Shown: positions 1,473 to 62,326, counted from the first letter of the stretch. The stretch is 64,000 nt of DNA from an uncultured Gemmatimonadales bacterium (GCA_963851265.1 CAWKNZ010000007.1:416001-480000); one strand, 5' to 3'. Program-made: numbers and translations. Notes: a model not told the origin generated them from the sequence alone.

Positions 1473-2852
1473 CTACTGCTCCAGCGTGTACAGGTACGCC
1501 GCGATGTCGCGCGCGTCGCCGTCGGTGACGCCGAGGTTGGGCATCGCGTTGCCGGGCGCGACCGACTGCGGCATCACGATCCACTGGACCAGATGCTCGG
1601 GCGTGTTGGCGAGGTAGCCCGCGATGATCGCGCGCTCGCGCCAGCCGGTGAGCGGCGGGCCGACCATCCCGTCGGCGCCGCGGATGCCGGGAATCAGGTG
1701 GCACGATCCGCAGCCGTACGTGCGGATGGCGCGCGCGCCGCGGGCCGGGTCTGCCGCGAGGTGCGCGCCGCCCTGGATGGACGCGAGTTCGCCCGTGCTC
1801 GCCAGATCACCGCCGACCTCGCTCCCCTCGCGGCGGCCCTCGCCCCCGCATGCGCCGAGCAACACGAACACGAGGAGCGCCGCGGCCGTCGCGCCGAACG
1901 CGTGCGCCGACCGGAGCCCGCGCGCCGGCGCGCCACGCGACCGGCGCGCGTCGGCGAGCATCCACCGCGCCGCGAGTGCGAGCGCGGCGCCGACGTAGAC
2001 GAGCCCCGCCGGCACCCACATCACGAGCCCGGCCAGTTGCTGATCGGCGATGAGCGTCGTGTGCCACGCGCGCGCGCCCGCCGCGTGCACGGGGTACCAC
2101 GGCGCGCGCGAGAAGGCGAGCAGCGCGCCCATCGCGCTGCCCAGCAGCCCCATGCTCATCACGTACAGGATGCCGGCCGCCTCGCCGAGCACCCGACGCC
2201 CGGTCGGCTGCGCCACGCGCCACCAGAACAGCCACGCCGTGCCGAGGAAGCTGACGTGCTCCAGCGCGTGCACCGCGTCGTTGCCTAACGCCGCCGAGTA
2301 GAGGACGGGGACGTGCCAGGCGACGAGCGCCACCGCGTGGAGCAGCCACGCCGCGGCCGGGGTGGCGACGGCGTGCGTGACCGCGCGCGCCGCCCGCTGC
2401 GGCGCGCGCCGCGCGTTCCACCACCTGGCCAGCGCGCGCCGGGCGCCCGCCGGCGGCGCCCACGCGAGCGCGAGCGGCAGGTTGGCGAGGGCGAGCAGCG
2501 GGGCGGCGACGAGGATCAGCAACAGGTGCTGGGCCATGTGCGCCGAGAAGAGCGCGTCTGCCACGGCATCGAATGGGGACACGAGCGCGGCGAGCAGGAC
2601 GACGATGGCCGCCGCGAACGCCCGCGCCTGCGCGATGCGGACCCCGCGCCCGCGACCCGCCCGCGCCCAGATCCGGCGCACGCCGAGCGCGTACGCCGCG
2701 GCGAGCAGGAGCGACGCGACGAGCGGGCCGACGTCGGGCGCCCACCCACCGGCGGCGCCCACCGCGTGCTGGCCCACCGGGTGCGCCCACGCCACCGCGG
2801 GTGTGAGCAGGGCGGCCAGGACGAACCGAACGTGTCGCGCGGTCACCGACAT
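1473..2852 (-). CDS. ctaG: caa3-type cytochrome c oxidase assembly factor (CtaG family) fused to a C-terminal cytochrome c
   Basis: FSAHMAQHLLL, WHVP, HALEH and DQQLAGLVMWVP motifs of caa3_CtaG; C-terminal CGSCH heme motif, GPPL and distal Met (AMP). Confidence 0.85.
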   Translation of the reverse strand: MSVTARHVRFVLAALLTPAVAWAHPVGQHAVGAAGGWAPDVGPLVASLLLAAAYALGVRRIWARAGRGRGVRIAQARAFAAAIVVLLAALVSPFDAVADALFSAHMAQHLLLILVAAPLLALANLPLALAWAPPAGARRALARWWNARRAPQRAARAVTHAVATPAAAWLLHAVALVAWHVPVLYSAALGNDAVHALEHVSFLGTAWLFWWRVAQPTGRRVLGEAAGILYVMSMGLLGSAMGALLAFSRAPWYPVHAAGARAWHTTLIADQQLAGLVMWVPAGLVYVGAALALAARWMLADARRSRGAPARGLRSAHAFGATAAALLVFVLLGACGGEGRREGSEVGGDLASTGELASIQGGAHLAADPARGARAIRTYGCGSCHLIPGIRGADGMVGPPLTGWRERAIIAGYLANTPEHLVQWIVMPQSVAPGNAMPNLGVTDGDARDIAAYLYTLEQ

Positions 2853-3265: not shown

Positions 3266-3275
3266 CAGTCCCTCC

Positions 3276-3899
3276 TCAGAAGCGCGGCGCGAGGTAGAGC
3301 GACGTGAACACGATGAGCCACACCGCGTCGACGAAATGCCAGTACAACACCGTGTTGTTCACCGCGAGCGTGCGCCCGGGCGGAAACGCCCCCGTGATCG
3401 CGCGCAGCAGCGTGTGGCCGAGCGCGAGCAGCCCGGCGAACACGTGCGCGCCGTGGAACCCGGTGATCGTGTAGAACATCGAGCCGTACGCGTCGGTCTG
3501 CGGCCGGAACTCCGCGCGCGACCACTCGAGCCCCTGCACGCCGAGGAACACCGCGCCCATCACGATCGTGAGCGCGAGGCCCGCGATGAGGCCGCCGCGG
3601 TTGCCGCGGTCGGCGCTCCGGTCGGCCCACCACGCCGCGCCGCTGCTCGCGACGAGCAGCGCGGTGTTGGGCGCGACGAGCGCGAGCGGCGGCGCGCCGG
3701 TGGTCGGCCAGGTCGCGTGCTGCACGGCGAGGTAGAAGTAGCTCCCGAGCAGGTAGCTGAACAGCGCGGCCTCGGTCGCGAGCAGCACCATCATCCCCCA
3801 CCAGCCCACGTCGTGCCCGCCGCGCCCGGCGGACACCGGCGGGCGCGCGGGCGCGCCCGCGGCGACGTCGTTAGGCGCCGTCGCGCCGGCCGCGCTCAC
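3276..3899 (-). CDS. ctaE: Cytochrome c oxidase subunit III (short form)
   Basis: LATEAALF, FYTITGFHGAHV and YWHFVDAVW motifs; GTG start at 3899 overlaps the coxA stop (GTGA). Confidence 0.92.
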   Translation of the reverse strand: MSAAGATAPNDVAAGAPARPPVSAGRGGHDVGWWGMMVLLATEAALFSYLLGSYFYLAVQHATWPTTGAPPLALVAPNTALLVASSGAAWWADRSADRGNRGGLIAGLALTIVMGAVFLGVQGLEWSRAEFRPQTDAYGSMFYTITGFHGAHVFAGLLALGHTLLRAITGAFPPGRTLAVNNTVLYWHFVDAVWLIVFTSLYLAPRF

Positions 3900-5899: not shown

Positions 5900-6933
5900 T
5901 AGTGCAAGCTCTCGAGGTAGGCGACCACGGCCTGCAGGTCGGCGCCGGACATCGCGACGACGGGCATCCGGTTGCCGGGTTTGATCCGCTGCGGGTCGCC
6001 CACCCAGCCGGCGAGGTCGCCGCGCGTGTTGGGCAGCGTCCCGGCGGCGAGCGTGGCGCGGCTCGCCAGGTGTGTGAGGTCGGGCCCGGCCTGCCCGCCG
6101 AACTCGGTGCCGCGTACCGCGTGACATCCCGCGCAGCCGAGCGACGCGAACGCGACGCGCCCGGCCTGCTCGTCGGGGCGGGTGGCGGGCGCCGCGGGCG
6201 CGTGCTGCGCGGCGAGCCACTCGCCATACTCCACCGGCGTCTGGGCGACGACGGTGAACCCCATGTGCGCGTGCTGCTGCCCGCAGAACTCGCCGCACTC
6301 GCCGTAGTACGTGCCCGCCGTGTCGGCCTCGAGCCAGATCGTGTTCACCTGACCGGCGACGAGGTCGGTCTTGCCGGCGAGCTGCGGCACCCAGAAGGAG
6401 TGATTCACGTCTTGCGTGCTGAGGGCGATGCTGACGCGCCGGCCGACGGGCACGTGCAACTCGTTCGCGGTGACGACGCCGCTCTTCGGATAGCGCACCT
6501 CCCACCACCACTGGTGCCCGACGACCACCGCATCGGCGCGCGCGGCGGCGTCGGGGTCGTTGACGGCGAACGGCTGCGCCTGCGCGTTGGTCTTCACCGT
6601 CGACCAGACGAACACGGCGGCCAGCACGAGCGCCGGCAGCACGAGGCCTAACATCAGGATGCCGCGCACCTCGTCCGGGTGGTCGTGCTGGTCGCGCGCG
6701 GACGCCGCGGCCCCGGCGACCGAGAGGTCGCCGCGCCCGCGGTTGCGCCAGAGGGGCGTCGCGAGAAAGCCGATGAAGATCAGGAAGACGATCGTCGAGA
6801 TCGCGATCAGCGCCCAGCCGAGCGCCGCCGACTCGACGGCCGCGCGCCCGCGGGCCGCGAAGATGGACAGCGTCGTCGGCGTCTGCGTCGGGATGAGCGC
6901 GAGCACCGCCAGCGTGGCACGCAGCGCCGTCAC
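5899..6933 (-). CDS. ctaC: Cytochrome c oxidase subunit II with CuA site and fused cytochrome c (caa3 type)
   Basis: GHQWWW, DVNHSFWVP, CGEFCGQQHAHM (CuA) and C-terminal CAGCH...GPDL...MP; GTG start at 6933 overlaps the upstream stop. Confidence 0.93.
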   Translation of the reverse strand: MTALRATLAVLALIPTQTPTTLSIFAARGRAAVESAALGWALIAISTIVFLIFIGFLATPLWRNRGRGDLSVAGAAASARDQHDHPDEVRGILMLGLVLPALVLAAVFVWSTVKTNAQAQPFAVNDPDAAARADAVVVGHQWWWEVRYPKSGVVTANELHVPVGRRVSIALSTQDVNHSFWVPQLAGKTDLVAGQVNTIWLEADTAGTYYGECGEFCGQQHAHMGFTVVAQTPVEYGEWLAAQHAPAAPATRPDEQAGRVAFASLGCAGCHAVRGTEFGGQAGPDLTHLASRATLAAGTLPNTRGDLAGWVGDPQRIKPGNRMPVVAMSGADLQAVVAYLESLH

Positions 6934-7640: not shown

Positions 7641-7643
7641 GGC

Positions 7644-9482
7644 TCAGTGTTTTCCGCCGCTACTGCCGCCGCTACTCGGCCGCGGGAGCGTGTCGACGGT
7701 GGTGACCGTCGGTGAGGTGGTGCGACCGCGCGCGTCGAGCGTGAACACGACGACCTCGTCCCCGCGCGGCGTGTTGGCGAGCAGGTTCCCGCCCGCGGCC
7801 ACGGCGACGTACTGCACGCCGTCGATCGCGTAGGTCATCGGCGGGGCGTTCACGCCGGCGCGCGCCGTGTACGCCCAGAGCTGCGCGCCGGTGCGCGCGT
7901 CGAGCGCAAGCACCTTCTTGTCGGACGTTCCCGTGAACATCAGACCGCCCGCCGTGGCGAGCGCGCCTCCGACCATCGGCTTCGGCGTCGGCACGAGCCA
8001 CGCGACGCGCCCGGTGTTCACGTCCACCGCGGAGATCGTTCCCGTGGGCTTCGACGTCGACGGGTAGTACCGGCCGCCGACGTACCACGCCCCGGGGTCG
8101 CGCTCCTCGTGCCGGCGCTTGTACAGGAAGGGCTCGCGCAACCCGAGGATGTACACGAGCCCGGTCTGCGGGCTGTACGCCGTGGGCGACCACTGCGAGC
8201 CGCCGAAGGCCCCGATCTGCTGCACCACGCCGCCCTGCAGCGGCGGGGCGGGGAAGGTCGGGCCGATGCCCGTGAACGGATCGGAGCGGCGGATGGGTGC
8301 CCCGGTGCGGCGGTCGACGATGAAGAACCACCCGGCCTTGCCCGCCTCGCCGGCGGCCGGCACCACGCGCCCCGACGCGTCGCGCACGTCGAACAGCACC
8401 ACCGGACTGGCGAGGTCGAGGTCCCACGTGTCGTGCGCGACTTCCTGCGCGCACCACGCGCGCTTGCCGGTGCGGTAGTCGACGGCGATGATGCTGTTGG
8501 CGCACAGGTTGTCGCCCGGCCGCACCGAGCCGTCGACGTCGGGCGACGTGTTGCCGGTCGAGAAGATCGCGTAGTGCAGCACCGTGTCTATGGCCGGGTT
8601 GTTCCAGACCGGCGCGCCGCCGTGCTTCCACGCGTCCGCGTACTTGGCGCTGTCGCGGTGTTCCTGCGCGAGGTCGCGGTGGAAGTCCGCGCCGAACGCG
8701 TCGCTCGCACCGAACTTCCCCCACCAGCCGCCGTCCTCGGGTCCCAACACCGTGTGAAAGCGCCAGAGTTCGTCGCCGCTGCGCGTGTCGAGCGCGACGA
8801 CGAAGCCGCGGATGCCGTACTCGCCGCCGCTCACCCCGAGCATCACCCGGTTCTCGATCACCGTGGGCGCCGCGCTGAAGCTGTAGCCCTGGGTGTTGTC
8901 GGCGACCTTGCGGTCCCACAGCAGGTGCCCCGTCGCCGCGTCCAGCGCCACGATGCGCGCGTCGAGCAGGCCCAGAAACACCCGGCCGCCGTACACGGCG
9001 ACCCCGCGGTTCATCGCCCCGCAGCAGATCACCGTCTTGCCGAGCTCGGGTACCCATTCCCAGCGCTTCGCACCGGTTCGCGCGTCGAGCGCGATCACGT
9101 GGTCGAGCGCGGTCGAGAGGTACATCGTGCCGTCGACCACGACCGGCGTGGCCTCGAACACGTGCGGCACGCCGGTCTTGTAGACCCAGGCGACGCCGAG
9201 GCGGCCGACGTTGGTCGTCGTGACCTGTGTGAGCGGCGACCAGCGCTGGTTGGAGTAGTCGCGCCCGTTGAGCGCCCACGCGCCCGTGTCGGCGAGGGCG
9301 CGGCGGAGGGCGGCGTCGGCCGTGCGCGCGTCGTCGGTGCGCACGGTCACGTGTGCGGCGGCGTCCGGCGTCCCGGCCGCGGCGGCGCGACCGCATCGTG
9401 TGGTCGCGGCGACCGCGGCGAGCGGGAGCAGCGCGGCCGCGCCGCGGCGCAGCGTTAGGCGAATCATACTCGGCGGCATCAT
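7644..9482 (-). CDS. PQQ-dependent dehydrogenase (methanol/ethanol family), copy 1
   Basis: GRDYSNQRWSPL, EATPVVVDG, vicinal ICCG, NRG, GGEYG, TGN, HDTWDLD and repeated W-type beta-propeller motifs. Confidence 0.92.
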   Translation of the reverse strand: MMPPSMIRLTLRRGAAALLPLAAVAATTRCGRAAAAGTPDAAAHVTVRTDDARTADAALRRALADTGAWALNGRDYSNQRWSPLTQVTTTNVGRLGVAWVYKTGVPHVFEATPVVVDGTMYLSTALDHVIALDARTGAKRWEWVPELGKTVICCGAMNRGVAVYGGRVFLGLLDARIVALDAATGHLLWDRKVADNTQGYSFSAAPTVIENRVMLGVSGGEYGIRGFVVALDTRSGDELWRFHTVLGPEDGGWWGKFGASDAFGADFHRDLAQEHRDSAKYADAWKHGGAPVWNNPAIDTVLHYAIFSTGNTSPDVDGSVRPGDNLCANSIIAVDYRTGKRAWCAQEVAHDTWDLDLASPVVLFDVRDASGRVVPAAGEAGKAGWFFIVDRRTGAPIRRSDPFTGIGPTFPAPPLQGGVVQQIGAFGGSQWSPTAYSPQTGLVYILGLREPFLYKRRHEERDPGAWYVGGRYYPSTSKPTGTISAVDVNTGRVAWLVPTPKPMVGGALATAGGLMFTGTSDKKVLALDARTGAQLWAYTARAGVNAPPMTYAIDGVQYVAVAAGGNLLANTPRGDEVVVFTLDARGRTTSPTVTTVDTLPRPSSGGSSGGKH

Positions 9483-9497
9483 CGACTCGGCGTCATC

Positions 9498-13601: not shown

Positions 13602-13611
13602 CGCCCGGCGC

Positions 13612-16600
13612 CTAACGCCCCGCCGCGGTGCGGGCGGACGCGCCGAGCAGCGCGTCCGCCTCCCGCCGGCGGTCCCGCACCACGCGCTCGAGTTCGGCGT
13701 ACCGCTCGACCGCGTCGCGCCCCACCGGCTGGTCGCCCTGCGTCGTCATGCCGTACAGGTACCGCACCTCGGCCAACAGCCCTGGGCGCCCGTAGCGAAA
13801 GCGCTCGCCGGTGAGCGCGGCCTGCAAGGCGCGCAGTCGCGCGAGCCGGTCGGGCGCGCCAGCGGCGGCGGAATCGGCCGCGAGCCGCGTCACGCCCGCG
13901 GCGACGTCGCGCGCCAGCGCCTGCGCGTCGCTCACGAGGTCGCGCGCGCGCACGTTGTGCGCGAACTGCGCCGCGAGCACCGCGGGCGTGACGCCGTCGC
14001 GGCGCACGCGTGGATCTTCCTCGACGACGAGCGTCCGGGTCGCCGACCAGCCCGTGCTGTCGGCACGCGCGTCGCGCAACGCGAGCCGCACCGCGTAACG
14101 CCCGGGCGGCACCATCGGCCCCGCGCGCCCGCTGCGGCGCGGGTCGGCCGGGTCGAGCGGGCCGGGCGCCGCGAGGTCCCAGACGACCCGGTGCGCGCCC
14201 AACGAGACGTCGAGCGCGGGCGCGCCCGCCCGGACGTCCAAGGCGCCGCGCGGACGGGCGCCCGGCGACGATGATTCGGACGTGAACTCGCGGACCGGCC
14301 GTCCAGCAGAGTCGAGCACGGTGAGCGTGACGACCGCACCACGCGACCGTGGCCCCATCCAGTAGTCGAGCGTCGCGCCCGGGGGCGGGTATTCGGGGTC
14401 GGTCGACACCGCGCGCACACTCTCCTCGCCGCCGAACGCGCCGTGGTACCGCAGCCGCAGGGCCGGGCGCGGCGCGGCAAGCATCGCCGGCGCCGTGTCG
14501 AGCGCGGCGCGCGCCCTCGCATCGGCCACGGCGCGCAGTGGCGTCAGGTCGTCGAGAATCCACAACCCGCGCCCCTGCGTCGATGCGACGAGGTCGCCCC
14601 GCCGGTGCACCACGAGGTCCGTGACCGGGACGGCGGGCATCCCACCCCCGCCCGCGCGCGTCGAGTCGCCCGGCATCCGCGTGACGCGCGAGCGCGGCAG
14701 CGGCTGCCAGTGCGCGCCGTCGTCGGCCGACACGTACACGCCGAACTCGGTGCCGGCGTAGAGCAGCCCCGGGCGGACGAGGTCCTCGCGCACGACGCGC
14801 GTCGGCTCGTCGGCGGCGATGCCGTTCGTGCCCGGCGTGAGCAGGCGCCACGTGCGGCCGTAATCGTTGGTCGCGTAGAGGTACGGGCGGAAATCGCCCA
14901 ACTGGTAGCGCAGCACCGCGACGTACGCGCCCCCCGCGCGGTGCGGCGAGGGCTCCACCGTCTGCACGCGCCCGCCCGGCGGGAGCCCGGGCGGCGTCAC
15001 GTCGGCCCAGGTGCGCCCGCCGTCGCGGGTGACGTGCACCGGCCCGTCGTTCGCGCCCGTCCAGATCACGCCGCGCGCCGCCGGGCTCTCGCGGATGCTG
15101 TAGAGCGTCGCGTACATCTCCTCGCCGGTCGCGTCGACCGTGATCGGCGTACCCGAGATCGTGTTGCGGTAGCGCGGGTCGTTGGCCGTGAGGTCGGGCG
15201 AGATCGCCGTCCACGTCACGCCGCCATCCGTCGACTTATGTACGAACTGCGACCCGTAGTACACCGTGCGCGGGTCGTGCGGGCTCGTCGCCATCGGCGA
15301 CACGCGCTGAAAGCGGTACCGGAGCCCCGCGTTCGGCTCGCCGTAGAGTGACTGCCCGCCGATCCAGTACTGCCGCTCCTGCCCCGTGCGCAGGGCCATG
15401 CGGCTGAACTGCCCCTTGCACGCCCCCCAAACCGTGTCCGGGCTGCCGGGCTGTGGCATCACAGGCCCCGTCTCGCAGCCGGGACCGTGCCGCCAGGCCT
15501 GCGTCGGGTCGTCGACGCCGCCCGCCTCCAACGGGAGCGAGGGCACGATGAGCGTGCCCCCCTCGTCCTGCTGCGCGCCGTACACCCGGTACGGCACCTG
15601 GTCGTCCACCGCGACGTTGTAGATCTCGGCGGTCGGTTGGTTGAGTTGCGTGCTCCACGTGCGCCCGCCCGTGAGCGAGACGTTCACCCCGCCGTCGTTG
15701 CTCTGGATCAGCACGCGCCCGTCGTGGGGGTTGGCCCACAGGTCGTGGTTGTCCCCATGCGGCGTGGGCATCGGCGCGAACGTGCGCCCGCCGTCGGTGC
15801 TGCGGAAGAAGTCCTCCGCCCCGGCGTACACGACGTCGGCGTTGGTCGGGTCGGTCGCGAGCGTGGTGTAGTAGAAGGGGCGCGTGAGCAGCCCGGATTG
15901 CGCGTTCACCAGACGCCACGTCTCGCCCGCGTCGTCCGAGCGGTACAGCCCGGAGCCCGCCGACCCGCGCTCGGCCCGCGCCTCGACGAGCGCGTACACG
16001 CGCCGCGGGTCGGCCGCGGTGACCGCGAGATTGCTCTTCCCGAACAACCCGTTAGGCAGCCCGCCGCCGAGCTTCCGCCACGTCCGCCCCGCGTCGGTGC
16101 TCTTGTAGACGCCGCCCTCGCGCGCGCCCGAGATGATCGTCCACGGCTTGCGCTCGGCGCGCCACATCGACGCGTAGACGACGTCCGGGTTGCCGGGCTG
16201 CAGCTCGACGTCGATCGCGCCGGTGCTGTCGGAGACGAAGAGCACGCGCTGCCACGTCCGCCCGCCGTCGGCCGTCCGGTAGAGTCCGCGCGCGGAGTCG
16301 GCGCGGAACGCGTTCCCGATGGCCGCCACGTACGCGACGTTCGCGTCGCGCGGATCCACGCGCACGCCGCCGATCTGCCCGACGTCGCGGAGCCCGGCGA
16401 ACGTCCACGTCCGCCCGGCGTCCGCCGAGCGGTAGACGCCGCGTCCGGTCGAGACGTTGCTGCGGATCGCGTCCGAGCCGGTGCCCACGTACACCACGCG
16501 TGGGTCCGACGGGGCGACCTCGACCGCGCCGACCGAACCCTCGGTGAAATACGCGTCGGTGAGATTGCGCCACGTCGTCCCCGCGTCCTCCGTCTTCCAC

Positions 16601-22292: not shown

Positions 22293-24309
<2,017 letters not shown>

Positions 24310-24313
24310 GCCG

Positions 24314-29583: not shown

Positions 29584-31856
<2,273 letters not shown>

Positions 31857-32420: not shown

Positions 32421-32475
32421 ACGGGCGTCGGGCCCGGCTCCGCGTTAGGCCGGTAGGGCGCCGGCGTGCGACACG

Positions 32476-32793
32476 TTAGGCGTCGTCCAGGTCGGCGAGC
32501 CGCGCCTCGAGCTCCTGCGCCATGCCGACGTGGCCGAAGCGGTACGACGCCTCCACGCCCTTCGTGAGCGCGTCGCGCGCGCCGGCCGCGTCGCCGAGCG
32601 CCGAGCGCGCCTCGGCCAGCCGCCCCCAGCCGTTGCCCTCGTCGTCGTAGCGCGCGAGGTAGGCCTCGAGCTGCTCCACCGCGTCGGCCCAGGCGCCGAC
32701 CTTCAGCAGCTCGTTCGCCAGCCCGAACCGCGCGAGTGGGTTCCCGGGCTGCCGCGCGACCATGTCGCGGAATGTGTCGATCTTGTCGGCCAT
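32476..32793 (-). CDS. Small tetratricopeptide-repeat protein
   Basis: PGNPLARFGLANELLK...GWGRLAEARSALGD TPR-like helices. Confidence 0.8.
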   Translation of the reverse strand: MADKIDTFRDMVARQPGNPLARFGLANELLKVGAWADAVEQLEAYLARYDDEGNGWGRLAEARSALGDAAGARDALTKGVEASYRFGHVGMAQELEARLADLDDA

Positions 32794-33657: not shown

Positions 33658-33898
33658 CCCGGACGGGCGTGGCGTTAGGCAACCGCGCCGCGCGCGTGCG
33701 CGCGGCGTGCGGGGCGGGCCGGGTCGGGGGCGGCGCGGGGCCGGAGTGGGGCTGGCACGGGCGCAAGATGCGGCCCCGCGCCCGGACTCGACAAGTCGAG
33801 CCGGGCGCGGGGCCGCATCCCGCGCCGCCGCTGGCGGCGCCGCGCTGCAGGTGCTACTCGCGTGCGGGTGCCATATCCGCTACACGCGTCGGGTGGCG

Positions 33899-52692: not shown

Positions 52693-55110
52693 TCAGTTCC
52701 TCAGCGGCTTGCCGGTCTTCAGAGTGTAGGCGATGCGTTCCTGGGTCTTCTCGTTACCGAGGAGCTTGAGGAACGCCTCGCGCTCGAGGTCGAGGATGTC
52801 CTGCTCGGTCACCGTGCGCGGCGGCCCGTCGCCGCCGCAGAGCACGTACGCGATGTTGTGGCCGACGGTGACGTCGTACGGCGTCGCCTGGCCGCTCTCG
52901 AGGAAGCTGAAGAGGGCGTAGGACAGGTTGCCCATTCCCTCGCGGCCTAACGCGCGGATGGTCTGCGGGGCGGGCGCGACGTAGTCGGGCGCGAGGTCGA
53001 GCACGCGGCGCTTGGCGTCGGCGACGAGCCGGTCTCGGTTCATCGTGATGCGGTCGTGGCGCGGGCGCAGGAAGCCCTTCTTCTTGGCCTCGAGCGCGCT
53101 CGTCGTGGGCTGCGGCGCGGCGATGAGGTTGAACGCGCGCTTGACCGCCTCGAAGGGATCGGCCTCCGCGTAGGGCTCGAGGTCCTTGGTGAAGCGGAAC
53201 AGCAGCTCCTTGGTGCCGCCCCCGCCCGGGAGCAGCCCGACGCCGGCCTCGACGAGGCCCATGTACAACTCGGCGTGCGCCTGGACGGCGTCGGCGTGCA
53301 GCGTGAACTCGGCGCCGCCGCCGAGCGTCAGGCCGGCCGGCGCGACGACGACGGGGAACGGCGCGCGGCGGATGCTCTGCACCGCGTCCTGGAAGCGCTT
53401 GATCGAGGCGTCGATGACGTCCCACATGCCCGCGATCACCGCGCCGGTGCTCTCCGAGAGGTCGGCACCGGCCGAGAAGAACTTCGGGTCGTCGTTGCCG
53501 ATGACCATGCCCGCCATGCCGCGCGACTCGACCAGCTCCAGCGACGCGGCGAGCGCGTCGAGCACCTTTGACCCGAGGGTGTTGCTCTTGGAGCGGAACT
53601 CGAGCAGGGCGACGTCGTCGCCGAGGTCGAGCAGGCGCGCGCCGGCGTTCTCGAACAGCACGTGGCCGGACTTCGCCGCGACTGCGGCGAGGCGGAGGTT
53701 GCCGTCGATCGGGGTGACGGGCGCGTAACGGCCGTCGAACCCGAGCACCTCCTCGCCGTTAGGCTGGGTGCGGTAGAAGCTGCCCTGGGCCCGCGTCAGC
53801 AGCGCCGGCACGCCCATCCCGCGCCGCTCGAACTCGGCCTTCAGGAAGTCGACGCCGAGCATGTCCATGACGCGGAACGGGCCGGCCTCGTGGCCGTACC
53901 CCCACTGCATGGCGCGGTCGACGCTCGGGACGTCGTAGGCGAGCTCTGGGCTCTTCTCGAGCGCGTAGTGCGCGTTCTCGAGGAGCGTCTGCCGCGCGAA
54001 CTCGCCGTACGGGCCGGACATGTCCTTGATCGCGGCGATGCGGCCGCCGAGCGGAAGCTTGAGCGCTGCCTTCAGCTCGGGGGTCTCGAGGCGCTGCTGC
54101 GGCTTGTAGGCGCCCGCGCGGAAGTCCCAGGTCTGGATGTCCTTGCCGACCTTCTTGTAGAACCCGCCCGCGGTCTTGTCGCCGAGTTGCTTGTTCTGCA
54201 CCATCGCGTGGAACCACGCGGGCAGGTCGAAGTTCTCGCCGGTGGCCTCGGCGGTGCCGGCGCTCACGTGCGCGAACACGTCGAGCCCCGACAGGTCGGC
54301 GGTGCGGAAGGTGGCGCTGTTGGGCCGGCCCATGAGCGGGCCCGTGAGGCCGTCGACCTCGTCGACCGTGAGGCCGAACTGCTCCATCGCGCGGATGGTG
54401 CGGGTGGAGCCGTAGACGCCCAACCGGTTGGCGATGAACCCGGGGGCGTCCTTGCAGAGGACGATCCCCTTGCCGAGCAGGCGCTCGCCGAACACGCGCA
54501 CCGCCTCGACCACCGCGGGCGCCGTGTCGGGCGTCGGGATGATCTCGAGCAGGTGCATGTAGCGCGCGGGCGCGAAGAAGTGCGTGCCGAGGAAGTGCTG
54601 CTTGAAGCGCGCCGAGCGCCCCTCGGTGAGCACGTGCATCGGGATGCCCGACGTGTTGCTCGACACCGCCGCGGTGGGCTTGAGGACGCCCTCGAGCTTC
54701 GAGTAGAGGGCCTGCTTCGGGCCCGGCTGCTCGATCACGGCCTCGATCACGAGGTCGCAGTCGCCGAGCAGGGCGAGATCGTCGTCGATGTTGCCGGTCT
54801 GGATGTAGGCCGCGCGATCGGCGTCCATGAAGGCCGCGGGCTTGGCCTTCAGGGTGCGCGCGACGGCGCCCGTGGCGATCGCGGAGCGGTCGGGGCCGTC
54901 GGTGGCGACGTCGAGCAACACCACGGGCAGCCCAGCGGACGCGGCGAGGGCCGCGATGCCCGATCCCATGGTCCCCGCGCCGACCACGCCGACCTTCTTG
55001 ATCGCGACGTGCGCGGGCCGCGCGTCGGCGGCGAGGTCCAGCTCGGGCCCGAGGTCGAATCCGGCGAACGCTGTTCGGTTGCCGGCGTCAGGAGAGGTTT
55101 CGGTGGCCAT
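52693..55110 (-). CDS. fadN: 3-hydroxyacyl-CoA dehydrogenase/enoyl-CoA hydratase (FadN-type domain order)
   Basis: GAGTMGSG, SNTSG, HFF and PGFIANR; C-terminal crotonase FSAGADL, GGGAE and EAGVGL; ends GKPLRN. Confidence 0.9.
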   Translation of the reverse strand: MATETSPDAGNRTAFAGFDLGPELDLAADARPAHVAIKKVGVVGAGTMGSGIAALAASAGLPVVLLDVATDGPDRSAIATGAVARTLKAKPAAFMDADRAAYIQTGNIDDDLALLGDCDLVIEAVIEQPGPKQALYSKLEGVLKPTAAVSSNTSGIPMHVLTEGRSARFKQHFLGTHFFAPARYMHLLEIIPTPDTAPAVVEAVRVFGERLLGKGIVLCKDAPGFIANRLGVYGSTRTIRAMEQFGLTVDEVDGLTGPLMGRPNSATFRTADLSGLDVFAHVSAGTAEATGENFDLPAWFHAMVQNKQLGDKTAGGFYKKVGKDIQTWDFRAGAYKPQQRLETPELKAALKLPLGGRIAAIKDMSGPYGEFARQTLLENAHYALEKSPELAYDVPSVDRAMQWGYGHEAGPFRVMDMLGVDFLKAEFERRGMGVPALLTRAQGSFYRTQPNGEEVLGFDGRYAPVTPIDGNLRLAAVAAKSGHVLFENAGARLLDLGDDVALLEFRSKSNTLGSKVLDALAASLELVESRGMAGMVIGNDDPKFFSAGADLSESTGAVIAGMWDVIDASIKRFQDAVQSIRRAPFPVVVAPAGLTLGGGAEFTLHADAVQAHAELYMGLVEAGVGLLPGGGGTKELLFRFTKDLEPYAEADPFEAVKRAFNLIAAPQPTTSALEAKKKGFLRPRHDRITMNRDRLVADAKRRVLDLAPDYVAPAPQTIRALGREGMGNLSYALFSFLESGQATPYDVTVGHNIAYVLCGGDGPPRTVTEQDILDLEREAFLKLLGNEKTQERIAYTLKTGKPLRN

Positions 55111-56922: not shown

Positions 56923-56927
56923 CCGGC

Positions 56928-57920
56928 ATGGATACGCCCGCGTTCGACCTCTCCGCGCTGCTGCCCGGCCGGCCGCCGGGCGACGACCACGGCGCGCCGC
57001 TCCAGATCGCCGACGACCTCTCGTGGCTCCGGTGCGGGATCGTGAACGTCGCGTTCCTCGGCCACCCCGACGCAGGCGACCGCGGATGGGTACTGGTCGA
57101 CGCGGGGTTGCCGGGATTCGCCGGGACGATTGCGCGGGCGGCCGAGGCGCGGTTCGGCGGCTCGCGGCCGGCGGCGATCGTGCTCACCCACGGGCACTTC
57201 GACCACGTCGGAGCGCTGCAGGACCTGGCGGATCAGTGGGACGCGCCGATCTACGCGCACTTCCTCGAGATGCCGTATCTGACGGGCCAGTCGGCGTATC
57301 CACCGCCGGATCCGACGGTGGGCGGCGGCGCGATGGCGTTCAGCTCGCCGCTCTTTCCGCCGGGGCCGTTCGATTTCGGGGACCGCATGCGCCCGCTGCC
57401 GAGCGAGGGCGCGGTGAACACGGGGCCGGTGCCGAACGCGCCCGACTGGCGCTGGTGGCACACGCCGGGGCATGCGCCCGGGCACGTGTCGCTCTGGCGC
57501 GAGCGCGACCGCGCGCTCGTGGCCGGCGACGCGTTCGTGACGACGAAACAGGAGTCGGCGATCGCCGTGTACGAGCAGCGGCTCGAGATGCACGGGCCGC
57601 CGATGTACTACACGCCGGACTGGGACGCGTCGCGCGCCTCGGTGCAGCGCCTGGCCGCGCTCGAGCCGTCGGTCGCGATCACGGGGCACGGGCTGCCGAT
57701 GTCGGGCGCGGCACTCACGGACGGGCTGCACGCGCTCGCGCGGGACTTCGACCGCGTGGCGCGCCCGGCCCGCGGGCGGTACGCGCACGAGCCCGCGCGC
57801 ACCGACGAGTCGGGGGTCCGCTCGCTGCCGCCGGCGGTTCCGGACGTCACGCCGCTCGCGCTCGTCGGCACGGCGCTCGCGGCCGGGCTGGTCCTGGGCG
57901 CGGCGGGGCGGGAGCGTTAG
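56928..57920 (+). CDS. MBL-fold metallo-hydrolase
   Basis: LVDAG, THGHFDHVG, HTPGHAPGH, AGDA and TGHG. Confidence 0.92.
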   Translation: MDTPAFDLSALLPGRPPGDDHGAPLQIADDLSWLRCGIVNVAFLGHPDAGDRGWVLVDAGLPGFAGTIARAAEARFGGSRPAAIVLTHGHFDHVGALQDLADQWDAPIYAHFLEMPYLTGQSAYPPPDPTVGGGAMAFSSPLFPPGPFDFGDRMRPLPSEGAVNTGPVPNAPDWRWWHTPGHAPGHVSLWRERDRALVAGDAFVTTKQESAIAVYEQRLEMHGPPMYYTPDWDASRASVQRLAALEPSVAITGHGLPMSGAALTDGLHALARDFDRVARPARGRYAHEPARTDESGVRSLPPAVPDVTPLALVGTALAAGLVLGAAGRER

Positions 57921-58013
57921 GCAACCGCCGGCGCCGGCGCCGGCGCCGCGCACGCGCCGGGATCCGGGTGCGTGCGCGGCGCGAGCCGCAGCGTCAGGCA
58001 GAGCCGGGCGGGC

Positions 58014-58916: not shown

Positions 58917-59143
58917 GCCGCCGGCGAGTGCAACCCGCGTGCTGGCGCGGGCGCGGCGGACTCTGCGTTAGGCAGTGCGCCCGGGCCCGGCAACGGTCGT
59001 ACGCGCGGGTGCAACCTACGCTCTAGTCGTCCAACAGACCGGCGACCGCGCGGTCGGACGCACGTTCCTGCGCGCGCGTGCCGGCGACGCGCGCGACGTC
59101 GGCCTGGATGATCTCGGCGACGGCGCAGCGCGTTGGCGGAGCG

Positions 59144-59623: not shown

Positions 59624-59686
59624 GCGCGGAAGATGCACCCGCGCGCACGCACGCGCGTGGCCGAAAGGCGCCCTAGTTTCGACGAC

Positions 59687-62326
59687 GTGTCGTCCAGCCC
59701 GCGCTTCGCGCCCCCGCTACCGATCGACGAGGCGCTTCCCGCACTCGGGACCGCGCTCGCGACGTCGACACGCGCCGTACTGCAGGCCCCGCCGGGGGCG
59801 GGGAAGACGACGCGCGTGCCACTCGCGCTGCTCGACGCACCCTGGCTCGCGGGCCGCACCGTCGTGATGCTCGAGCCGCGGCGCCTGGCGGCGCGCGCGG
59901 CGGCGCGGCGCATGGCGGTCACGTTAGGCGAGGAGGTGGGCGCGACGGTCGGGTTCCGCGTGCGCGCCGAGACCCGCGTCTCGTCGCGCACGCGGGTCGA
60001 GGTCGTCACCGAGGGCGTGCTCACGCGGATGCTGCAGGAGGACGCCGCGCTCGAGCGGGTGGGGGCCGTGCTGTTCGACGAGTACCACGAACGCTCGCTG
60101 CAGGCGGACGTCGGGCTGGCGCTCGTGCTCGAACTGCAGCAGGTGCTCCGCGACGACCTGCGTGTGCTCGTCATGTCGGCGACGCTCGACGGCGCGCGCG
60201 TGGCCGCACTGCTCGGCCGCGCGGGCGACGGCGCGCCCGCCCCGGTGGTGACCAGCGCGGGACGCGCGTACCCCGTCGAGGTGCGGTGGCGCGCGCAGCG
60301 GCCGCCGCCCCAGCACGGCGCGGTCGAAGCCGCCGCCGCTGCGACCGTTAGGCGCGCGCTCGACGCGCACGACGGAGACGTGCTCGTCTTCCTCCCCGGC
60401 GCGGCGGAGATCCGGCGCGCGGGCGAGGCGCTCACCGATCCGCCGCTGCCGGCCGGCGTGCGCGTGCACGCGCTGCACGGGCTGCTATCGCCCGCCGAGC
60501 AGGACGCGGCGATCGCTCCGTCCGCGTCGGGCGCTCGGAAGGTGGTGCTCGCGACGGCGATCGCCGAGACCAGTCTCACCATCGAAGGCGTTCGCGTGGT
60601 CGTCGACGCGGGGCTCGCGCGGGTACCCCGCTTCTCGCCGCGCACCGGCATGACGTACCTCGACACGGTGCGCGTGTCGCAGGCGGCCGCGGAGCAGCGG
60701 CGCGGGCGCGCGGGGCGCGTCGCGCCGGGCGTGTGCTACCGCCTGTGGCCCGAGGCGGAGCACGCCGGGTTGCTCGCCTATGCGCCACCCGAGATCCTCG
60801 ACGCCGACCTCGCGCCGCTGGCGCTGGAGTTGGCCGACGCGGGCGTTCGCGATCCGGGGACGCTCCTCTGGCTCGACCCACCGCCGGCGGCCGCGTACGC
60901 CCGCGCGCGCGAGCTGCTGGCGCAGCTCGACGCGCTCACCGCGGCGGGGCCGGACGGGCGGATCACCGCGCACGGGCGCCGCATGACCGACGTGGGTCTG
61001 CACCCGCGGCTCGCCCACATGACCATCGGCGCCGCGCCCGACGCCGCGTGGACCGCGTGCGCGCTCGCCGTCCTGCTCGCCGAACGTGACATCCTCCGTG
61101 GCGCGTCGGCGCAACCGCCCGAGGTCGACGTCGAGCTGCGGATCGCTCTCCTGCGTCGCGGCCCGGTGCCACCGACGGTGCACGGCGCCGGCGTCGACCG
61201 CGCGGCGGTGCATCGCGTCCGCGACGACCTCGGCGCGCTGCTGCGCCGCTTGCGGGTGCGCGACGCAGCCGACGGCTCGGCAACTCCGGGCGCCACGGGT
61301 GATGCGGTCGGCGCGCTCGTCGCCGCCGCCTACCCCGACCGCGTCGCGCAGCGGCGCCCGGGACCGCCAGGCCGGTTCCTCCTGCGCAACGGGCGAGGTG
61401 TCGCGGTGTCGGCCGACGACCCTCTGGCGCGCGCACCGTACCTCGCGGTCGCCGAGCTGGTCGGCGCGCCGGGCGATCGCGAGAGCCGCGTCGCGCTCGC
61501 GGCGTCGCTGACGCTCGAACGCATCGAGGCGCAGTTCGCCGGGCAGATCGTGCACGAGGACGAGGTGGCGTGGGACGACGCGACCGACGCGGTGCGCGCG
61601 CGCCACGTGGACCGGCTCGACGCGCTGGTCCTGCGCGAGCGCCCGTCGCGGAACGCAGATCCGGCACGCGCCGCGGCCCTGCTCGCCGAGGTCGCACGCG
61701 CACGCATCGGCGCCGACGGCGCCACGCTCGACGCGCTCGCGGCGGGCGGTGTGGCGGCCTCGCTACGTGCACGCGTCGCATTCGTGCGACAGTTGGCCGA
61801 TGCCGGCGAGCCGGCGGCGGTGCGCGCGGGCCCGTGGCCGGACTGGAGCGACGCCGCGCTCGCCGGCGACGTGGGCGCGTGGCTCGCGCCACACCTCGGG
61901 GGGTTGCGGAGCTGGTCGGAGGTGCGGTCCCTCGATCTCACCGCGATCCTGCGCGGCTCGCTCACGCACGGCCAGCTCAGCGCGCTGGACGCGCTCGCTC
62001 CGACGCACCTCGTGGTCCCGAGCGGCTCGCGGCTGCCCATCGACTACGCGAACCCCGATGCGCCGTCGCTGTCCGTACGGCTGCAGGAACTGTTCGGGCT
62101 CGCCGAAACGCCGCGCGTGGGCGCGGGACGCGTCCCGGTGGTGCTGGCGCTCCTGTCGCCCGCGCACCGGCCGGTGCAGGTCACGCGGGACCTCGCGGGG
62201 TTCTGGCGGTCGAGCTACTTCGACGTACGGCGGGAACTGCGAGGGCGGTACCCGAAGCACGCGTGGCCGGAGGATCCGGCACGAGCGGAGCCGACCGCGC
62301 GCGCGAAGCGGCGGGTGGCCGAGTAG
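59687..62326 (+). CDS. hrpB: ATP-dependent helicase HrpB
   Basis: APPGAGKTT, EPRRLAAR, DEYHER, MSAT, AETSLTIEG and QRRGRAGR; C-terminal LLSPAHRP...FW..SY...RGRYPKH.WP. Confidence 0.96.
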   Translation: MSSSPRFAPPLPIDEALPALGTALATSTRAVLQAPPGAGKTTRVPLALLDAPWLAGRTVVMLEPRRLAARAAARRMAVTLGEEVGATVGFRVRAETRVSSRTRVEVVTEGVLTRMLQEDAALERVGAVLFDEYHERSLQADVGLALVLELQQVLRDDLRVLVMSATLDGARVAALLGRAGDGAPAPVVTSAGRAYPVEVRWRAQRPPPQHGAVEAAAAATVRRALDAHDGDVLVFLPGAAEIRRAGEALTDPPLPAGVRVHALHGLLSPAEQDAAIAPSASGARKVVLATAIAETSLTIEGVRVVVDAGLARVPRFSPRTGMTYLDTVRVSQAAAEQRRGRAGRVAPGVCYRLWPEAEHAGLLAYAPPEILDADLAPLALELADAGVRDPGTLLWLDPPPAAAYARARELLAQLDALTAAGPDGRITAHGRRMTDVGLHPRLAHMTIGAAPDAAWTACALAVLLAERDILRGASAQPPEVDVELRIALLRRGPVPPTVHGAGVDRAAVHRVRDDLGALLRRLRVRDAADGSATPGATGDAVGALVAAAYPDRVAQRRPGPPGRFLLRNGRGVAVSADDPLARAPYLAVAELVGAPGDRESRVALAASLTLERIEAQFAGQIVHEDEVAWDDATDAVRARHVDRLDALVLRERPSRNADPARAAALLAEVARARIGADGATLDALAAGGVAASLRARVAFVRQLADAGEPAAVRAGPWPDWSDAALAGDVGAWLAPHLGGLRSWSEVRSLDLTAILRGSLTHGQLSALDALAPTHLVVPSGSRLPIDYANPDAPSLSVRLQELFGLAETPRVGAGRVPVVLALLSPAHRPVQVTRDLAGFWRSSYFDVRRELRGRYPKHAWPEDPARAEPTARAKRRVAE

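What the first reader, a model, noticed from the sequence alone, without database searches (positions are those of the whole stretch)
2283..60353. Highly iterated non-palindromic octamer CGTTAGGC/GCCTAACG written into genes through rare codons
Seen: at least 21 exact copies by eye. On + as CGTTAGGC: 3869, 9453, 16050, 23065, 24304, 30116, 32443, 32474, 33673, 40643, 53757, 57915, 58966, 59922, 60346. As GCCTAACG: 2283, 13610, 18922, 19603, 25658, 52945. One-mismatch copies lie at 6646, 24815 and 46661. A rough base-composition expectation at ~75% GC is only about 2 per 64 kb. Most copies sit inside conserved genes and use codons otherwise rare here: TTA-GGC (Leu-Gly) in ctaG, nadE x2, the sensor kinase, lon, kinase 2, the helicase, fadN and hrpB; CCT-AAC (Pro-Asn) in coxC, the VPS10 gene and fadN; GTT-AGG in hrpB. 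It also supplies the stop codon of four genes (13610, 24304, 32474, 57915). Because it appears in several reading frames and on both strands, selection appears to act on the DNA, not the protein. Established analogues are DNA uptake sequences, cyanobacterial HIP1, and Chi/KOPS. Inference: a lineage-specific chromosomal signal (uptake, recombination or segregation, nucleoid-protein site, or methyltransferase-driven motif) that I do not recognise as described.
Basis: partly seen in the sequence, partly recalled or inferred. Interest (0 to 1): 0.82.

Follow-up and report, generated by a model that had tools for sequence, protein, structure and literature searches.

The report
Hyper-abundant genome word CGTTAGGC
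A soil bacterium of the Gemmatimonadaceae has written one eight-letter DNA word about 1,400 times through its genes, gene ends and resident phages against its own codon habits; the word looks like a self tag linked to recombination, is spelled like the ends of integron gene cassettes, and what reads it is unknown.

Summary
The genome holds 1,396 copies. Against a codon-shuffle null the word is the top outlier of all 65,536 octamers (802 vs 23.7 in genes). 59% of all TTA codons lie inside it.

It acts on DNA, not protein or mRNA. Both strands are used at like rates where the protein allows. It supplies 166 stop codons and is densest just 3' of genes. It shows no replication polarity beyond what gene orientation explains.

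New here:
- The word sits on a sharp, symmetric, within-gene peak of GC3, while other rare AT words sit in troughs. This suggests word-centred gene conversion.
- Its positions are conserved between species beyond the neutral rate.
- One genus holds two genomes with about 4,000 copies and one with 66.
- Temperate phages carry it at host-like density.
- It matches 8 of 8 letters of the outer boxes of the genome's own integron attC sites, yet an intact integrase is neither needed nor sufficient.
- RecC and Vsr were not found.

Best reading (0.4): an uptake-sequence-like self word spread by recombination, reader unknown. The scan has flagged this word before, in this genome and in others. My literature searches turned up no description of it.

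The parts
2283..2290 (-). exact copy in ctaG, sense GCG-TTA-GGC (Ala-Leu-Gly)
3869..3876 (+). exact copy antisense in COX3 gene, G-CCT-AAC-G (Pro-Asn)
6646..6653 (-). variant TGTTAGGC in COX2/cytochrome c gene, ATG-TTA-GGC
   Evidence: the T variant is 17x enriched and has the same GC3 peak
9453..9460 (+). exact copy antisense in PQQ dehydrogenase gene, CGC-CTA-ACG (Arg-Leu-Thr)
13610..13617 (-). exact copy giving the TAG stop of the VPS10/BNR gene (CGT-TAG)
16050..16057 (+). exact copy antisense in VPS10/BNR gene, CCT-AAC (Pro-Asn)
18922..18929 (-). exact copy in nadE, sense frame nCG-TTA-GGC (gene missed by my caller)
   Evidence: frame worked out from the ORF end at 20961
19603..19610 (-). 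exact copy in nadE, sense frame nCG-TTA-GGC
23065..23072 (+). exact copy in PAS sensor gene, TCG-TTA-GGC (Ser-Leu-Gly)
24304..24311 (+). exact copy giving the TAG stop of the HATPase/receiver ORF 23497-24309
24815..24822 (-). variant AGTTAGGC in lon, CAG-TTA-GGC
25658..25665 (-). exact copy in lon, GCG-TTA-GGC (Ala-Leu-Gly)
30116..30123 (+). exact copy in Ser/Thr kinase gene, ACG-TTA-GGC (Thr-Leu-Gly)
32443..32450 (+). exact copy outside my called genes, 31 bp before the next copy
32474..32481 (+). exact copy giving the TAA stop of the minus-strand TPR ORF 32476-32793 (GCC-TAA)
33673..33680 (+). exact copy outside my called genes, 16 bp beyond the start of hydrolase ORF 32833-33657
40643..40650 (+). 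exact copy in conserved 919-aa ORF with no Pfam family, GCG-TTA-GGC
46661..46668 (+). variant TGTTAGGC in lytB/ispH, TTG-TTA-GGC
52945..52952 (-). exact copy in FadN-like 3-hydroxyacyl-CoA dehydrogenase gene, GCG-TTA-GGC
53757..53764 (+). exact copy antisense in the same gene, CCT-AAC (Pro-Asn)
57915..57922 (+). exact copy giving the TAG stop of the metallo-beta-lactamase-fold ORF 56928-57920
58966..58973 (+). exact copy outside my called genes, between ORFs 58014-58916 and 59144-59638
59922..59929 (+). exact copy in hrpB, ACG-TTA-GGC (Thr-Leu-Gly)
60346..60353 (+). exact copy in hrpB in the rarer frame C-GTT-AGG-C (Val-Arg)

Best explanation
YGTTAGGC (mostly CGTTAGGC) is a DNA-level self word. 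A sequence-specific reader, not yet identified, favours DNA that carries it, and the word is tied to homologous recombination.

The most likely mechanism is that of DNA uptake sequences. Fragments bearing the word are preferentially taken up, or preferentially recombined, during natural transformation. Word-bearing alleles therefore replace word-less ones (donor-advantage drive). The word accumulates wherever coding allows: compatible codon frames, stop codons and 3' gene flanks.

Shown: hyper-abundance, DNA-level action, strand symmetry, placement limited by constraint, positional conservation, a local GC3 peak, patchy phylogeny, and presence of uptake-machinery genes.

For: 1. Enrichment under a codon-aware null: 802 vs 23.7.

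2. DNA-level action. 523 of 3,056 [ASTP]-Leu-Gly sites (17%, 10.4 expected) and 126 of 579 x-Pro-Asn-[GAVDE] sites on the other strand (22%, 8.6 expected) carry the word. 73 of 744 TAG stops and 93 of 435 TAA stops come from it.

3. Strand balance of 708:688. The 162:83 co-orientation near a gene-orientation switch equals the product of gene bias and sense bias.

4. Density by location: 1.10 per kb in convergent intergenic gaps, 0.24 per kb in divergent ones, 0.25 per kb in coding DNA. Of 201 intergenic copies classified, 119 lie 3' of the nearest gene, at a median 18 bp from its end.

5. Deficit of close pairs: 53 pairs closer than 300 bp vs 122 expected, and 130 closer than 500 bp vs 197 expected.

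6. Link to recombination or nativeness.
- Density rises from 0.085 to 0.45 per kb with gene GC3.
- GC3 is 0.960 within 100 bp and falls to 0.933 beyond 1.5 kb. Unconverted [ASTP]LG sites are flat at 0.927.
- In 170 long genes with a single copy, GC3 is 0.963 near the word and 0.936 far from it, p = 4e-19.
- The peak is symmetric.
- The peak is seen for sense and antisense copies.
- It also appears as a total-GC peak in G012, G001 and G004.
- TGTTAGGC shares the peak. CGCTCGGC is flat. Non-word TTA codons and the reversed word lie in troughs.
- GC content tracks recombination in bacteria (Lassalle 2015, PMC4450053; abstract read).

7. Maintenance. 13 of 20 copies are kept in place between G292 and G235 at 81% DNA identity (p = 6e-6 against a null of 0.185). 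5 of 7 are kept between G000 and G001.

8. No replacement word in a poor relative (G006), as expected for an add-on reader.

9. Uptake genes are present: ComEC in 31 of 31 genomes; 9 pilin-like ORFs, 2 secretins and ComEA-like proteins in G000.
Against: No reader was found.
- Two pilin candidates and the HHH_3/ComEA-like copy number do not track richness.
- ComEC is universal, so it does not discriminate.

Transformability of these bacteria is unknown to me, and no paper links uptake sequences with Gemmatimonadota.

Few inverted terminator-type pairs were seen: 28 pairs closer than 150 bp, 12 of them inverted, and some of those are attC sites.

Temperate phages carry the word at host-like density. 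This fits any process acting on resident DNA at least as well as it fits uptake.

The GC3 peak could instead mean that the word persists best in old native segments.

The letter-for-letter match with integron attC ends is unexplained by this reading alone.
Confidence: 0.4

Rival explanations
1. Repair or mutational drive inside the cell, of the HIP1 or very-short-patch kind. A sequence-specific repair or modification enzyme keeps converting near-words into the word in any DNA that lives in the cell.
For: Temperate phage genomes carry the word at host-like density throughout. G317 (45.6 kb, CheckV 100%) has 35 copies vs 4 of the control word, including copies in the terminase, head and tail genes. 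One genus holds genomes with about 4,000 copies and one with 66, which fits gain or loss of a single enzyme. Cyanobacterial HIP1 is a precedent for a word written into genes (recalled).
Against: Vsr was not found in 0 of 10 rich relatives and was found in 3 of 21 others. The word is not palindromic. The commonest orthologous state, CGCTCGGC, is two changes away, and no single precursor word is selectively depleted once the null's inflation is allowed for. A pure mutational drive does not predict the kilobase-scale GC3 peak or the deficit of close pairs. Methyltransferases were not searched.
Confidence: 0.13
2. Chi-like signal. The word attenuates or redirects a helicase-nuclease (AddAB/AdnAB type) and so protects DNA and stimulates recombination on DNA that carries it.
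For: Density of about 1 per 3.3 kb, like E. coli Chi (recalled). An AddAB/AdnAB-like gene pair lies at C3:244523-248949. The word is tied to GC3 peaks. Phages carry it. There is a weak excess on the majority-gene strand: 100 of 515 vs 28 of 245 compatible sites, p = 0.007.
Against: Strands are 708:688 genome-wide. Local co-orientation is explained by coding. The GC3 peak is symmetric around an oriented word, 0.9517 vs 0.9533 in the first 100 bp, whereas Chi acts to one side (recalled). RecC was not found in G000 or in 29 of 30 relatives. A poor relative shows no alternative word, although weaker Chi-level enrichment would escape that 80-kb test.
Confidence: 0.15
3. Integron-linked word. The dispersed copies are read by the integron integrase or a relative as R-box-like sites, for example as landing sites or decoys for cassette recombination.
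For: The word matches 8 of 8 letters of the outer boxes of attC sites. At least 12 of G000's own attC sites (96-121 nt) end in RYYTAACG...CGTTRGGY. The cassette arrays of poor relatives carry CGTTAGGC every ~550 bp. Integron integrases are common in the order: 18 of 31 genomes over the cut-off. Earlier notes of this scan say the same word fills unrelated soil bacteria (not tested here).
Against: An intact integrase is neither needed nor sufficient. It is over the cut-off in 5 of 10 rich and 13 of 21 other relatives. G001 (97% complete, 2,137 copies) has only a fragment with a stop, and G000's own intI is split by an insertion. G288 (66 copies) has two or three. Dispersed copies lack the inverse box and hairpin, since their flanks are unconserved. 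Genome sites used by IntI1-3 have only a GWT consensus (bioRxiv 10.1101/2022.09.11.507474, passages read). Insertion into conserved genes would be harmful.
Confidence: 0.12
4. Binding site of a chromosome-organising protein (KOPS/AIMS-like, nucleoid occlusion, or a nucleoid-associated protein).
For: It is an asymmetric 8-bp word of the size read by FtsK-gamma-type domains (recalled). The longest word-free gap in G000 (45 kb, about 0.001 such gaps expected) covers gidA-parA-parB-mnmE, the origin region.
Against: No polarity. The origin gap is not conserved: G012 has normal density there, and G001 and G004 are only thinner. Most copies lie inside genes. Absence from most relatives without any replacement is odd for a core organising system.
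Confidence: 0.08

Closest known systems
DNA uptake sequences: DUS of Neisseriaceae and USS of Pasteurellaceae (properties recalled, not from a call)
   Same: A short non-palindromic word, hundreds to thousands of copies, on both strands without replication polarity. It is written into genes in the frames that proteins tolerate, is enriched at gene 3' ends, is more evenly spaced than chance at short range, and is shared by related species.
   Different: Different phylum and a different word. No demonstrated competence or uptake bias, and no receptor found. Few inverted terminator pairs. Very patchy even within one genus. Also present in temperate phages. Identical to integron attC ends.
Integron core site / attC R box (GTTRRRY consensus recalled; R and L boxes described in PMC12614218, passages read)
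   Same: Letter-for-letter identity with the R''/R' boxes of this genome's own attC sites and those of relatives.
   Different: The 1,396 copies are single and have unconserved flanks. They lack the L boxes, hairpin and cassette context. Most lie in frame in housekeeping genes. Richness does not follow the presence of intI.
HIP1 (GCGATCGC) of cyanobacteria (recalled)
   Same: An octamer hyper-abundant inside genes through codon choice, of unknown function, and conserved in place between species.
   Different: HIP1 is a palindrome containing a methylation site. This word is asymmetric, and no modification link was tested here.
Chi sites of RecBCD/AddAB (recalled)
   Same: Similar density, a recombination link, and asymmetry of the word.
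   Different: No co-orientation with replication beyond coding effects. Symmetric composition profile. RecC not found.

Membership tests
DNA uptake sequence (DUS/USS) | Short word far more frequent than composition and codon usage predict | tested here: met
   802 vs 23.7 under codon shuffle, top of 65,536 octamers; 21 vs 1.03 in the window
DNA uptake sequence (DUS/USS) | Both orientations about equal, no replication polarity | tested here: met
   708:688; local 162:83 explained by gene orientation times sense bias; weak residual of 100/515 vs 28/245
DNA uptake sequence (DUS/USS) | Import machinery encoded (ComEC, ComEA, type IV pilus or pseudopilus, secretin) | tested here: met
   present in rich and poor genomes alike, so not discriminating
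DNA uptake sequence (DUS/USS) | Sequence-biased uptake by competent cells | not testable with these tools
   needs an isolate and labelled-DNA uptake or transformation competition
DNA uptake sequence (DUS/USS) | A dedicated receptor (ComP-type minor pilin in Neisseria) | tested here: inconclusive
   two pilin-like proteins and HHH_3 copy number do not follow richness; specificity cannot be read from sequence
DNA uptake sequence (DUS/USS) | Enrichment at gene 3' ends, often as inverted pairs in terminators | tested here: inconclusive
   3'-end enrichment met (1.10 per kb in convergent gaps); only 12 inverted pairs closer than 150 bp, several of them attC sites
Chi | Preferential co-orientation with replication | tested here: not met
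Chi | Directional effect to one side of the word | tested here: not met
   proxy only: the GC3 profile is symmetric
Chi | RecBCD or AddAB present | tested here: inconclusive
   RecC not found in 30 of 31 genomes; AddAB/AdnAB-like pair present in G000
KOPS / AIMS | Strong strand skew that flips at origin and terminus | tested here: not met
Integron attC / attI site | Core sequence GTTRRRY | tested here: met
   8 of 8 match with the ends of the genome's own attC sites and relatives' arrays
Integron attC / attI site | Paired inverse core plus L boxes forming an imperfect hairpin, or a second integrase box as in attI | tested here: not met
   flanks of the 1,396 copies show no conservation beyond codon periodicity; attC-type pairs only on C10 and C6
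Integron attC / attI site | Dependence on an integron integrase | tested here: not met
   5 of 10 rich vs 13 of 21 other relatives have intI over the cut-off; G288, poor, has intI
HIP1-type palindrome | Palindromic word containing a methyltransferase site | tested here: not met
   CGTTAGGC is not self-complementary; methylation not testable; Vsr not found in rich genomes

The most novel reading that the evidence does not exclude
Every attC site carries two inverted copies of the word. Cells that import or favour DNA bearing CGTTAGGC would therefore preferentially capture cassettes from any donor. The same bias then drove the word through their own chromosomes and prophages. This would couple natural transformation (or another DNA-acceptance step) to integron cassette traffic. 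It would also explain why one and the same word is hyper-abundant in separate lineages, and, per earlier unverified notes of this scan, in other phyla.
Probability: 0.1. Interest if true: 0.9.

Novelty: new variant of a known kind. Interest (0 to 1): 0.72.

Why it matters
Genome-wide self words are known from very few bacterial groups. Each one exposed a specific DNA-recognition machine: ComP for DUS, RecC for Chi, FtsK for KOPS.

This one has four notable features.
- It lies in a little-studied soil phylum.
- It overrides an extreme codon bias, accounting for 59% of all TTA codons.
- It marks local peaks of GC3, which makes it a possible natural marker of gene-conversion centres in bacteria.
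- It is spelled like the recombination core of integrons.

Tried and rejected
- Protein or mRNA-level cause (a TTA-codon effect): rejected. The antisense frame is used at a similar rate, the word is used as a stop codon and in non-coding DNA, and antisense copies share the GC3 peak.
- Part of a longer repeat: rejected, because the flanks are unconserved.
- GC skew for finding replichores: uninformative in this genome. No KOPS-like skewed octamer was found.
- Origin-region avoidance (45-kb gap at gidA/parAB): not conserved in G012, only thinner in G001 and G004.
- 'Dialect' word in a poor relative: none in 80 kb of G006.
- Reader candidates by presence or absence: intI, pilin C1:169074, minor pilin C9:34212, HHH_3/ComEA-like, ComEC, RecC, Vsr. 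None tracks richness.
- DNA identity near shared copies is higher (0.85-0.89 vs 0.78 beyond 1 kb). I do not count this, because shared copies are by selection in conserved DNA.
- Sequencing runs: the best holder has 13% of the words, so nothing was laid. No data on population variation or read ends.
- HK97-type capsid prophage in G000: not found.
- Literature. 'CGTTAGGC' occurs in 223 papers; in the listing of 15 I saw only primers and unrelated uses. 'Gemmatimonadetes + integron + attC' gave 2 unrelated papers. 'GTTAGGC + integron' gave 111 papers; the listing of 12 was mostly primer uses. 'uptake sequence + Gemmatimon' gave 0 papers. No listed paper joins uptake sequences with biased gene conversion.

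Full report
**1. Observation**

The octamer occurs 21 times in the window at exactly the listed coordinates, 15 on + and 6 on -. Dinucleotide shuffles give 1.03 expected, with a largest value of 5 in 100. The three near copies at 6646, 24815 and 46661 keep GTTAGGC and differ only in the first letter.

The window is G000:C7:416001-480000 of a 4.6-Mb, 12-contig, 73% GC genome. Related loci carry titles of Gemmatimonadaceae and Gemmatimonadota MAGs.

Genome-wide there are 1,396 copies, 0.27-0.41 per kb on every contig, split 708 forward and 688 reverse. Of 2,173 GTTAG pentamers, 1,762 lie in GTTAGGC and 1,396 in CGTTAGGC. The first position is C 1,396, T 243, G 69, A 54. The word is therefore YGTTAGGC. 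Its flanks show only codon periodicity.

**2. Codon-aware null**

I called genes with my own scripts. A strict GC3 filter gave 2,156 ORFs. A codon-score caller gave 3,728 ORFs covering 90% of the genome. The caller is imperfect: it missed nadE in the window.

I shuffled synonymous codons within each gene 30 times. This keeps the proteins and even the TTA codons the word itself contributes. The shuffles give 23.7 (sd 4.2) sense copies against 802 observed. That is the largest deviation of all 65,536 octamers, followed only by words that overlap it. The antisense reading is 236 vs 18.8.

778 of 1,315 TTA codons (59%) and 172 of 2,105 CCT codons lie in the word.

**3. DNA level, not protein or mRNA**

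In the strict gene set, 523 of 3,056 [ASTP]-Leu-Gly tripeptides (17.1%; 10.4 expected from codon usage) are spelled nCG-TTA-GGC. On the other strand, 126 of 579 x-Pro-Asn-[GAVDE] sites (21.8%; 8.6 expected) are spelled G-CCT-AAC-G. The other two open frames are used at 24 of 2,288 and 34 of 1,345 sites. The 3.4:1 excess on the sense strand therefore reflects how common Ala-Leu-Gly is, not a strand preference.

The 1,396 copies divide as follows:
- 778 in the sense main frame
- 172 in the antisense main frame
- 65 and 23 in the two other frames
- 154 across gene ends
- 204 outside called genes

The word supplies 73 of 744 TAG stops and 93 of 435 TAA stops.

Outside genes it is densest in convergent gaps (1.10 per kb). 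Tandem gaps have 0.35-0.48 per kb, divergent gaps 0.24 and coding DNA 0.25. Of 201 classified, 119 lie 3' of the nearest gene at a median of 18 bp, in either orientation (61 vs 58).

Close pairs are scarce: 53 closer than 300 bp vs 122 expected, and 130 closer than 500 bp vs 197 expected.

The window copies sit in ctaG, COX3, a PQQ dehydrogenase, a VPS10/BNR gene, nadE, a PAS sensor, lon, a Ser/Thr kinase, a conserved 919-aa ORF, a FadN-like gene and hrpB.

**4. Polarity**

GC skew is uninformative in this genome. On contig C2 gene orientation switches at about 1.35 Mb. There the word is co-oriented with the majority gene strand 162:83 (66%). This is what 78% gene bias times 77% sense bias predicts. 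No KOPS-like octamer stands out.

Per compatible site, the majority strand is used somewhat more often: 100 of 515 vs 28 of 245, odds ratio 1.9, p = 0.007. That is a weak effect, far from Chi or KOPS behaviour.

**5. A composition peak centred on the word (new)**

Word density rises five-fold with gene GC3. It is 0.085 per kb in the lowest quarter and 0.45 per kb in the top tenth. The share of compatible sites that carry the word rises from 7% to 30%. This holds although the word itself lowers GC3.

Around word copies, with the word's own bases masked, GC3 is 0.960 within 100 bp, 0.944 at 300-500 bp and 0.933 beyond 1.5 kb. Around unconverted [ASTP]LG sites it is flat at 0.927.

Within 170 genes of at least 1.8 kb that hold exactly one copy, GC3 is 0.963 within 150 nt and 0.936 beyond 600 nt (paired Wilcoxon p = 4e-19). 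It declines monotonically to 0.925.

The peak is symmetric about the oriented word: 0.9517 vs 0.9533 in the first 100 bp. It holds for sense copies (0.960 to 0.932) and antisense copies (0.950 to 0.933).

Controls:
- TGTTAGGC has the same peak.
- The usual synonymous spelling CGCTCGGC is flat (0.931 to 0.929).
- CGTTCGGC is flat.
- CGTTGGGC has a small peak.
- Non-word TTA codons lie in a trough (0.893 to 0.919).
- The reversed word lies in a trough (0.908 to 0.921).

Total GC shows the same peak in samples of G012 (0.625 near the word, 0.585 at 1-1.5 kb, 0.549 beyond), G001 and G004.

GC content tracks recombination within bacterial genomes (Lassalle et al. 2015, PMC4450053; abstract read). 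I therefore read the peak as word-centred, orientation-independent gene conversion. The alternative is that the word survives best in the oldest native segments. That reading is also recombination-related and is not excluded.

**6. Phylogenetic pattern**

I call a genome 'rich' if it has at least 300 copies and more than twice the count of the reversed control word.

Among 31 genomes of the order, 10 are rich: G000-G004 of the same genus, plus G008, G012 (6,360 copies in 5.1 Mb), G017, G018 and G030. The others hold 3-194 copies.

In a sample of 301 genomes of the phylum:
- 10 of 71 in the window's family are rich.
- 2 of 125 in a second family are rich. Both are in genus g72, which also holds three intermediate genomes.
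- 0 of 105 in the other ten families are rich.

These tallies include the unpublished genomes G011, G078, G117 and G198. All four are poor, and nothing rests on them.

Within genus g42, two genomes hold 3,896 and 4,141 copies and a third holds 66. In syntenic DNA, G292 and G235 have 0.87 and 0.82 copies per kb and G288 has none in 26 kb. At 9 orthologous sites G288 has ordinary spellings such as CGCTCGGC.

Copies are kept in place beyond the neutral rate. 13 of 20 are kept between G292 and G235 at 81% DNA identity, p = 6e-6 against 0.185. Of the window's 7 coding copies inside alignments, 5 are shared with G001 and 4 with G004, while each relative has 10 copies of its own.

New copies arise by synonymous and by amino-acid-changing substitutions, not by insertions.

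A poor relative (G006, 80 kb) has no hyper-abundant octamer of its own. The same test recovers the word in the window, G001, G004 and G012.

**7. The integron connection**

In poor relatives the few copies cluster at about 550-bp spacing on one strand. Each is embedded in a conserved ~35-nt repeat. These are attC sites of integron cassette arrays.

G000 has its own integron.
- At least 12 attC sites of 96-121 nt lie on C10:188.9-212 kb, and one lies on C6. Their outer boxes read RYYTAACG...CGTTRGGY, with consensus GCCTAACG/CGTTAGGC.
- The cassettes are mostly toxin-antitoxin pairs, with two identical IS110-family copies among them.
- The intI gene is split by an inserted large serine recombinase gene.

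The word is thus 8 of 8 the R box of the resident attC family. The general GTTRRRY consensus is recalled, not from a call.

Yet the dispersed copies are single, without an inverse box or hairpin, and richness does not follow intI.
- A match over the family cut-off is found in 5 of 10 rich and 13 of 21 other relatives.
- G001 (97% complete, 2,137 copies) has only a fragment with a stop codon.
- G288 (poor) has two intI matches over the cut-off and a third just below it, and the rich G235, G292, G299 and G159 have one each.
- Genome sites used by IntI1-3 need only GWT (bioRxiv 10.1101/2022.09.11.507474; passages read).

**8. Phages**

I examined 80. 53 held only the seed pair, but several are word-rich.

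- G317: 45.6 kb, CheckV 100%, with an integrase. 35 copies (15 forward, 20 reverse) against 4 of the control word, spread over the whole genome. Copies lie in the large terminase, the head protease/major head gene and the tail genes, in the same codon frames as in the host.
- G318: a provirus, 18 copies in 49 kb.
- G319: 43 copies in 41 kb.
- G320: 16 copies in 41.7 kb.

The selection was seeded on the word, so these are examples, not a frequency. Temperate phages of presumably rich hosts thus carry host-like densities. The force acts on any long-resident DNA. This fits a population-level drive on prophages, an intracellular repair drive, or selection on phage DNA to look like self.

**9. Candidate machinery**

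- ComEC is present in 31 of 31 genomes.
- G000 has 9 pilin-like ORFs (one in the window at 36717-36791), 2 secretins and ComEA-like proteins.
- None of the tested candidates follows richness.
- RecC was not found in 30 of 31 genomes.
- An AddAB/AdnAB-like pair exists in G000.
- Vsr was found in 0 of 10 rich and 3 of 21 other genomes.

**10. Verdict**

The word behaves like the uptake sequences of Neisseriaceae and Pasteurellaceae in every feature that sequence alone can show. It also marks local GC3 peaks, consistent with recombination centred on it. I therefore favour an uptake-sequence-like, donor-advantage self word (0.4).

Its rivals are a repair drive (0.13), a Chi-like nuclease signal (0.15), an integrase-linked role (0.12) and a chromosome-organising site (0.08).

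Earlier notes of this scan reached the same DUS-like reading and noticed the integron match, in this genome (e1-7820584) and in others. They also claim the word fills unrelated soil bacteria, which I could not test. New here are the GC3 peak with its controls, the excess positional conservation, the within-genus contrast, the word-rich temperate phages, and the negative tests for intI, RecC, Vsr and pilins.

My literature searches found no description of this word as a genomic signal. I saw only listings.

Noticed in passing
G000 C6:1-6300 and C10:188000-215025 (outside the window): A chromosomal integron. intI is split (model positions 2-265 at C6:5244-6044 and 260-313 at C6:3005-3166) by an inserted large serine recombinase gene. 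The cassette array consists mostly of toxin-antitoxin pairs (BrnT, HicAB, DUF433/DUF5615, DUF4926/DUF6883), with two identical IS110-family transposase genes inside it. intI and the cassettes are on the same strand.
   Followed up: partly
G000 C1:182875-227962 (outside the window): The longest word-free stretch of the genome (45 kb; about 0.001 such gaps expected). It holds gidA, parA, parB and mnmE, i.e. the origin region. It is thinner but not empty in G001 and G004, and has normal density in G012.
   Followed up: yes
IMG/VR records behind L185, L149, L168, L173 (handles G317-G320): Temperate phage and provirus genomes of 41-49 kb and 65-72% GC carry 16-43 copies of the word, including in structural genes. 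The reversed control word occurs 0-4 times.
   Followed up: partly
genus g42: G235, G292 vs G288: Two genomes with about 4,000 copies and one with 66 in the same genus. G288 shows ordinary Leu codons at 9 orthologous sites.
   Followed up: partly
L001 (G021:C95:1-20000), L002 (G019:C3), L003 (G021:C80): Long integron cassette arrays in word-poor relatives, with about 550-bp cassettes and a highly conserved 3' half of attC (GCGCCGCAGCTTAAGCGCGATCCGTTAGGC-like).
   Followed up: partly
window 39511-42270 (+): A 919-aa ORF with no Pfam family at E<=1e-6. It is conserved at 70-85% DNA identity across genera of the family. One word site in it is shared by G001, G004 and G012 but reads CGTTGGGC in G000.
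   Followed up: no
window 36717-36791 (-): An N-terminal methylation (type IV pilin-like) motif, one of nine in the genome. My gene caller did not call an ORF there.
   Followed up: no
G000 C3:244523-248949: An AddAB/AdnAB-like pair of PDDEXK_1 nuclease-domain ORFs. The search reports one in-frame TGA within the match to the longer one.
   Followed up: no
G001:C5:733354-735281: The gidA match is split into two overlapping pieces (residues 12-411 and 409-643). This is a frameshift or an assembly error in that relative.
   Followed up: no
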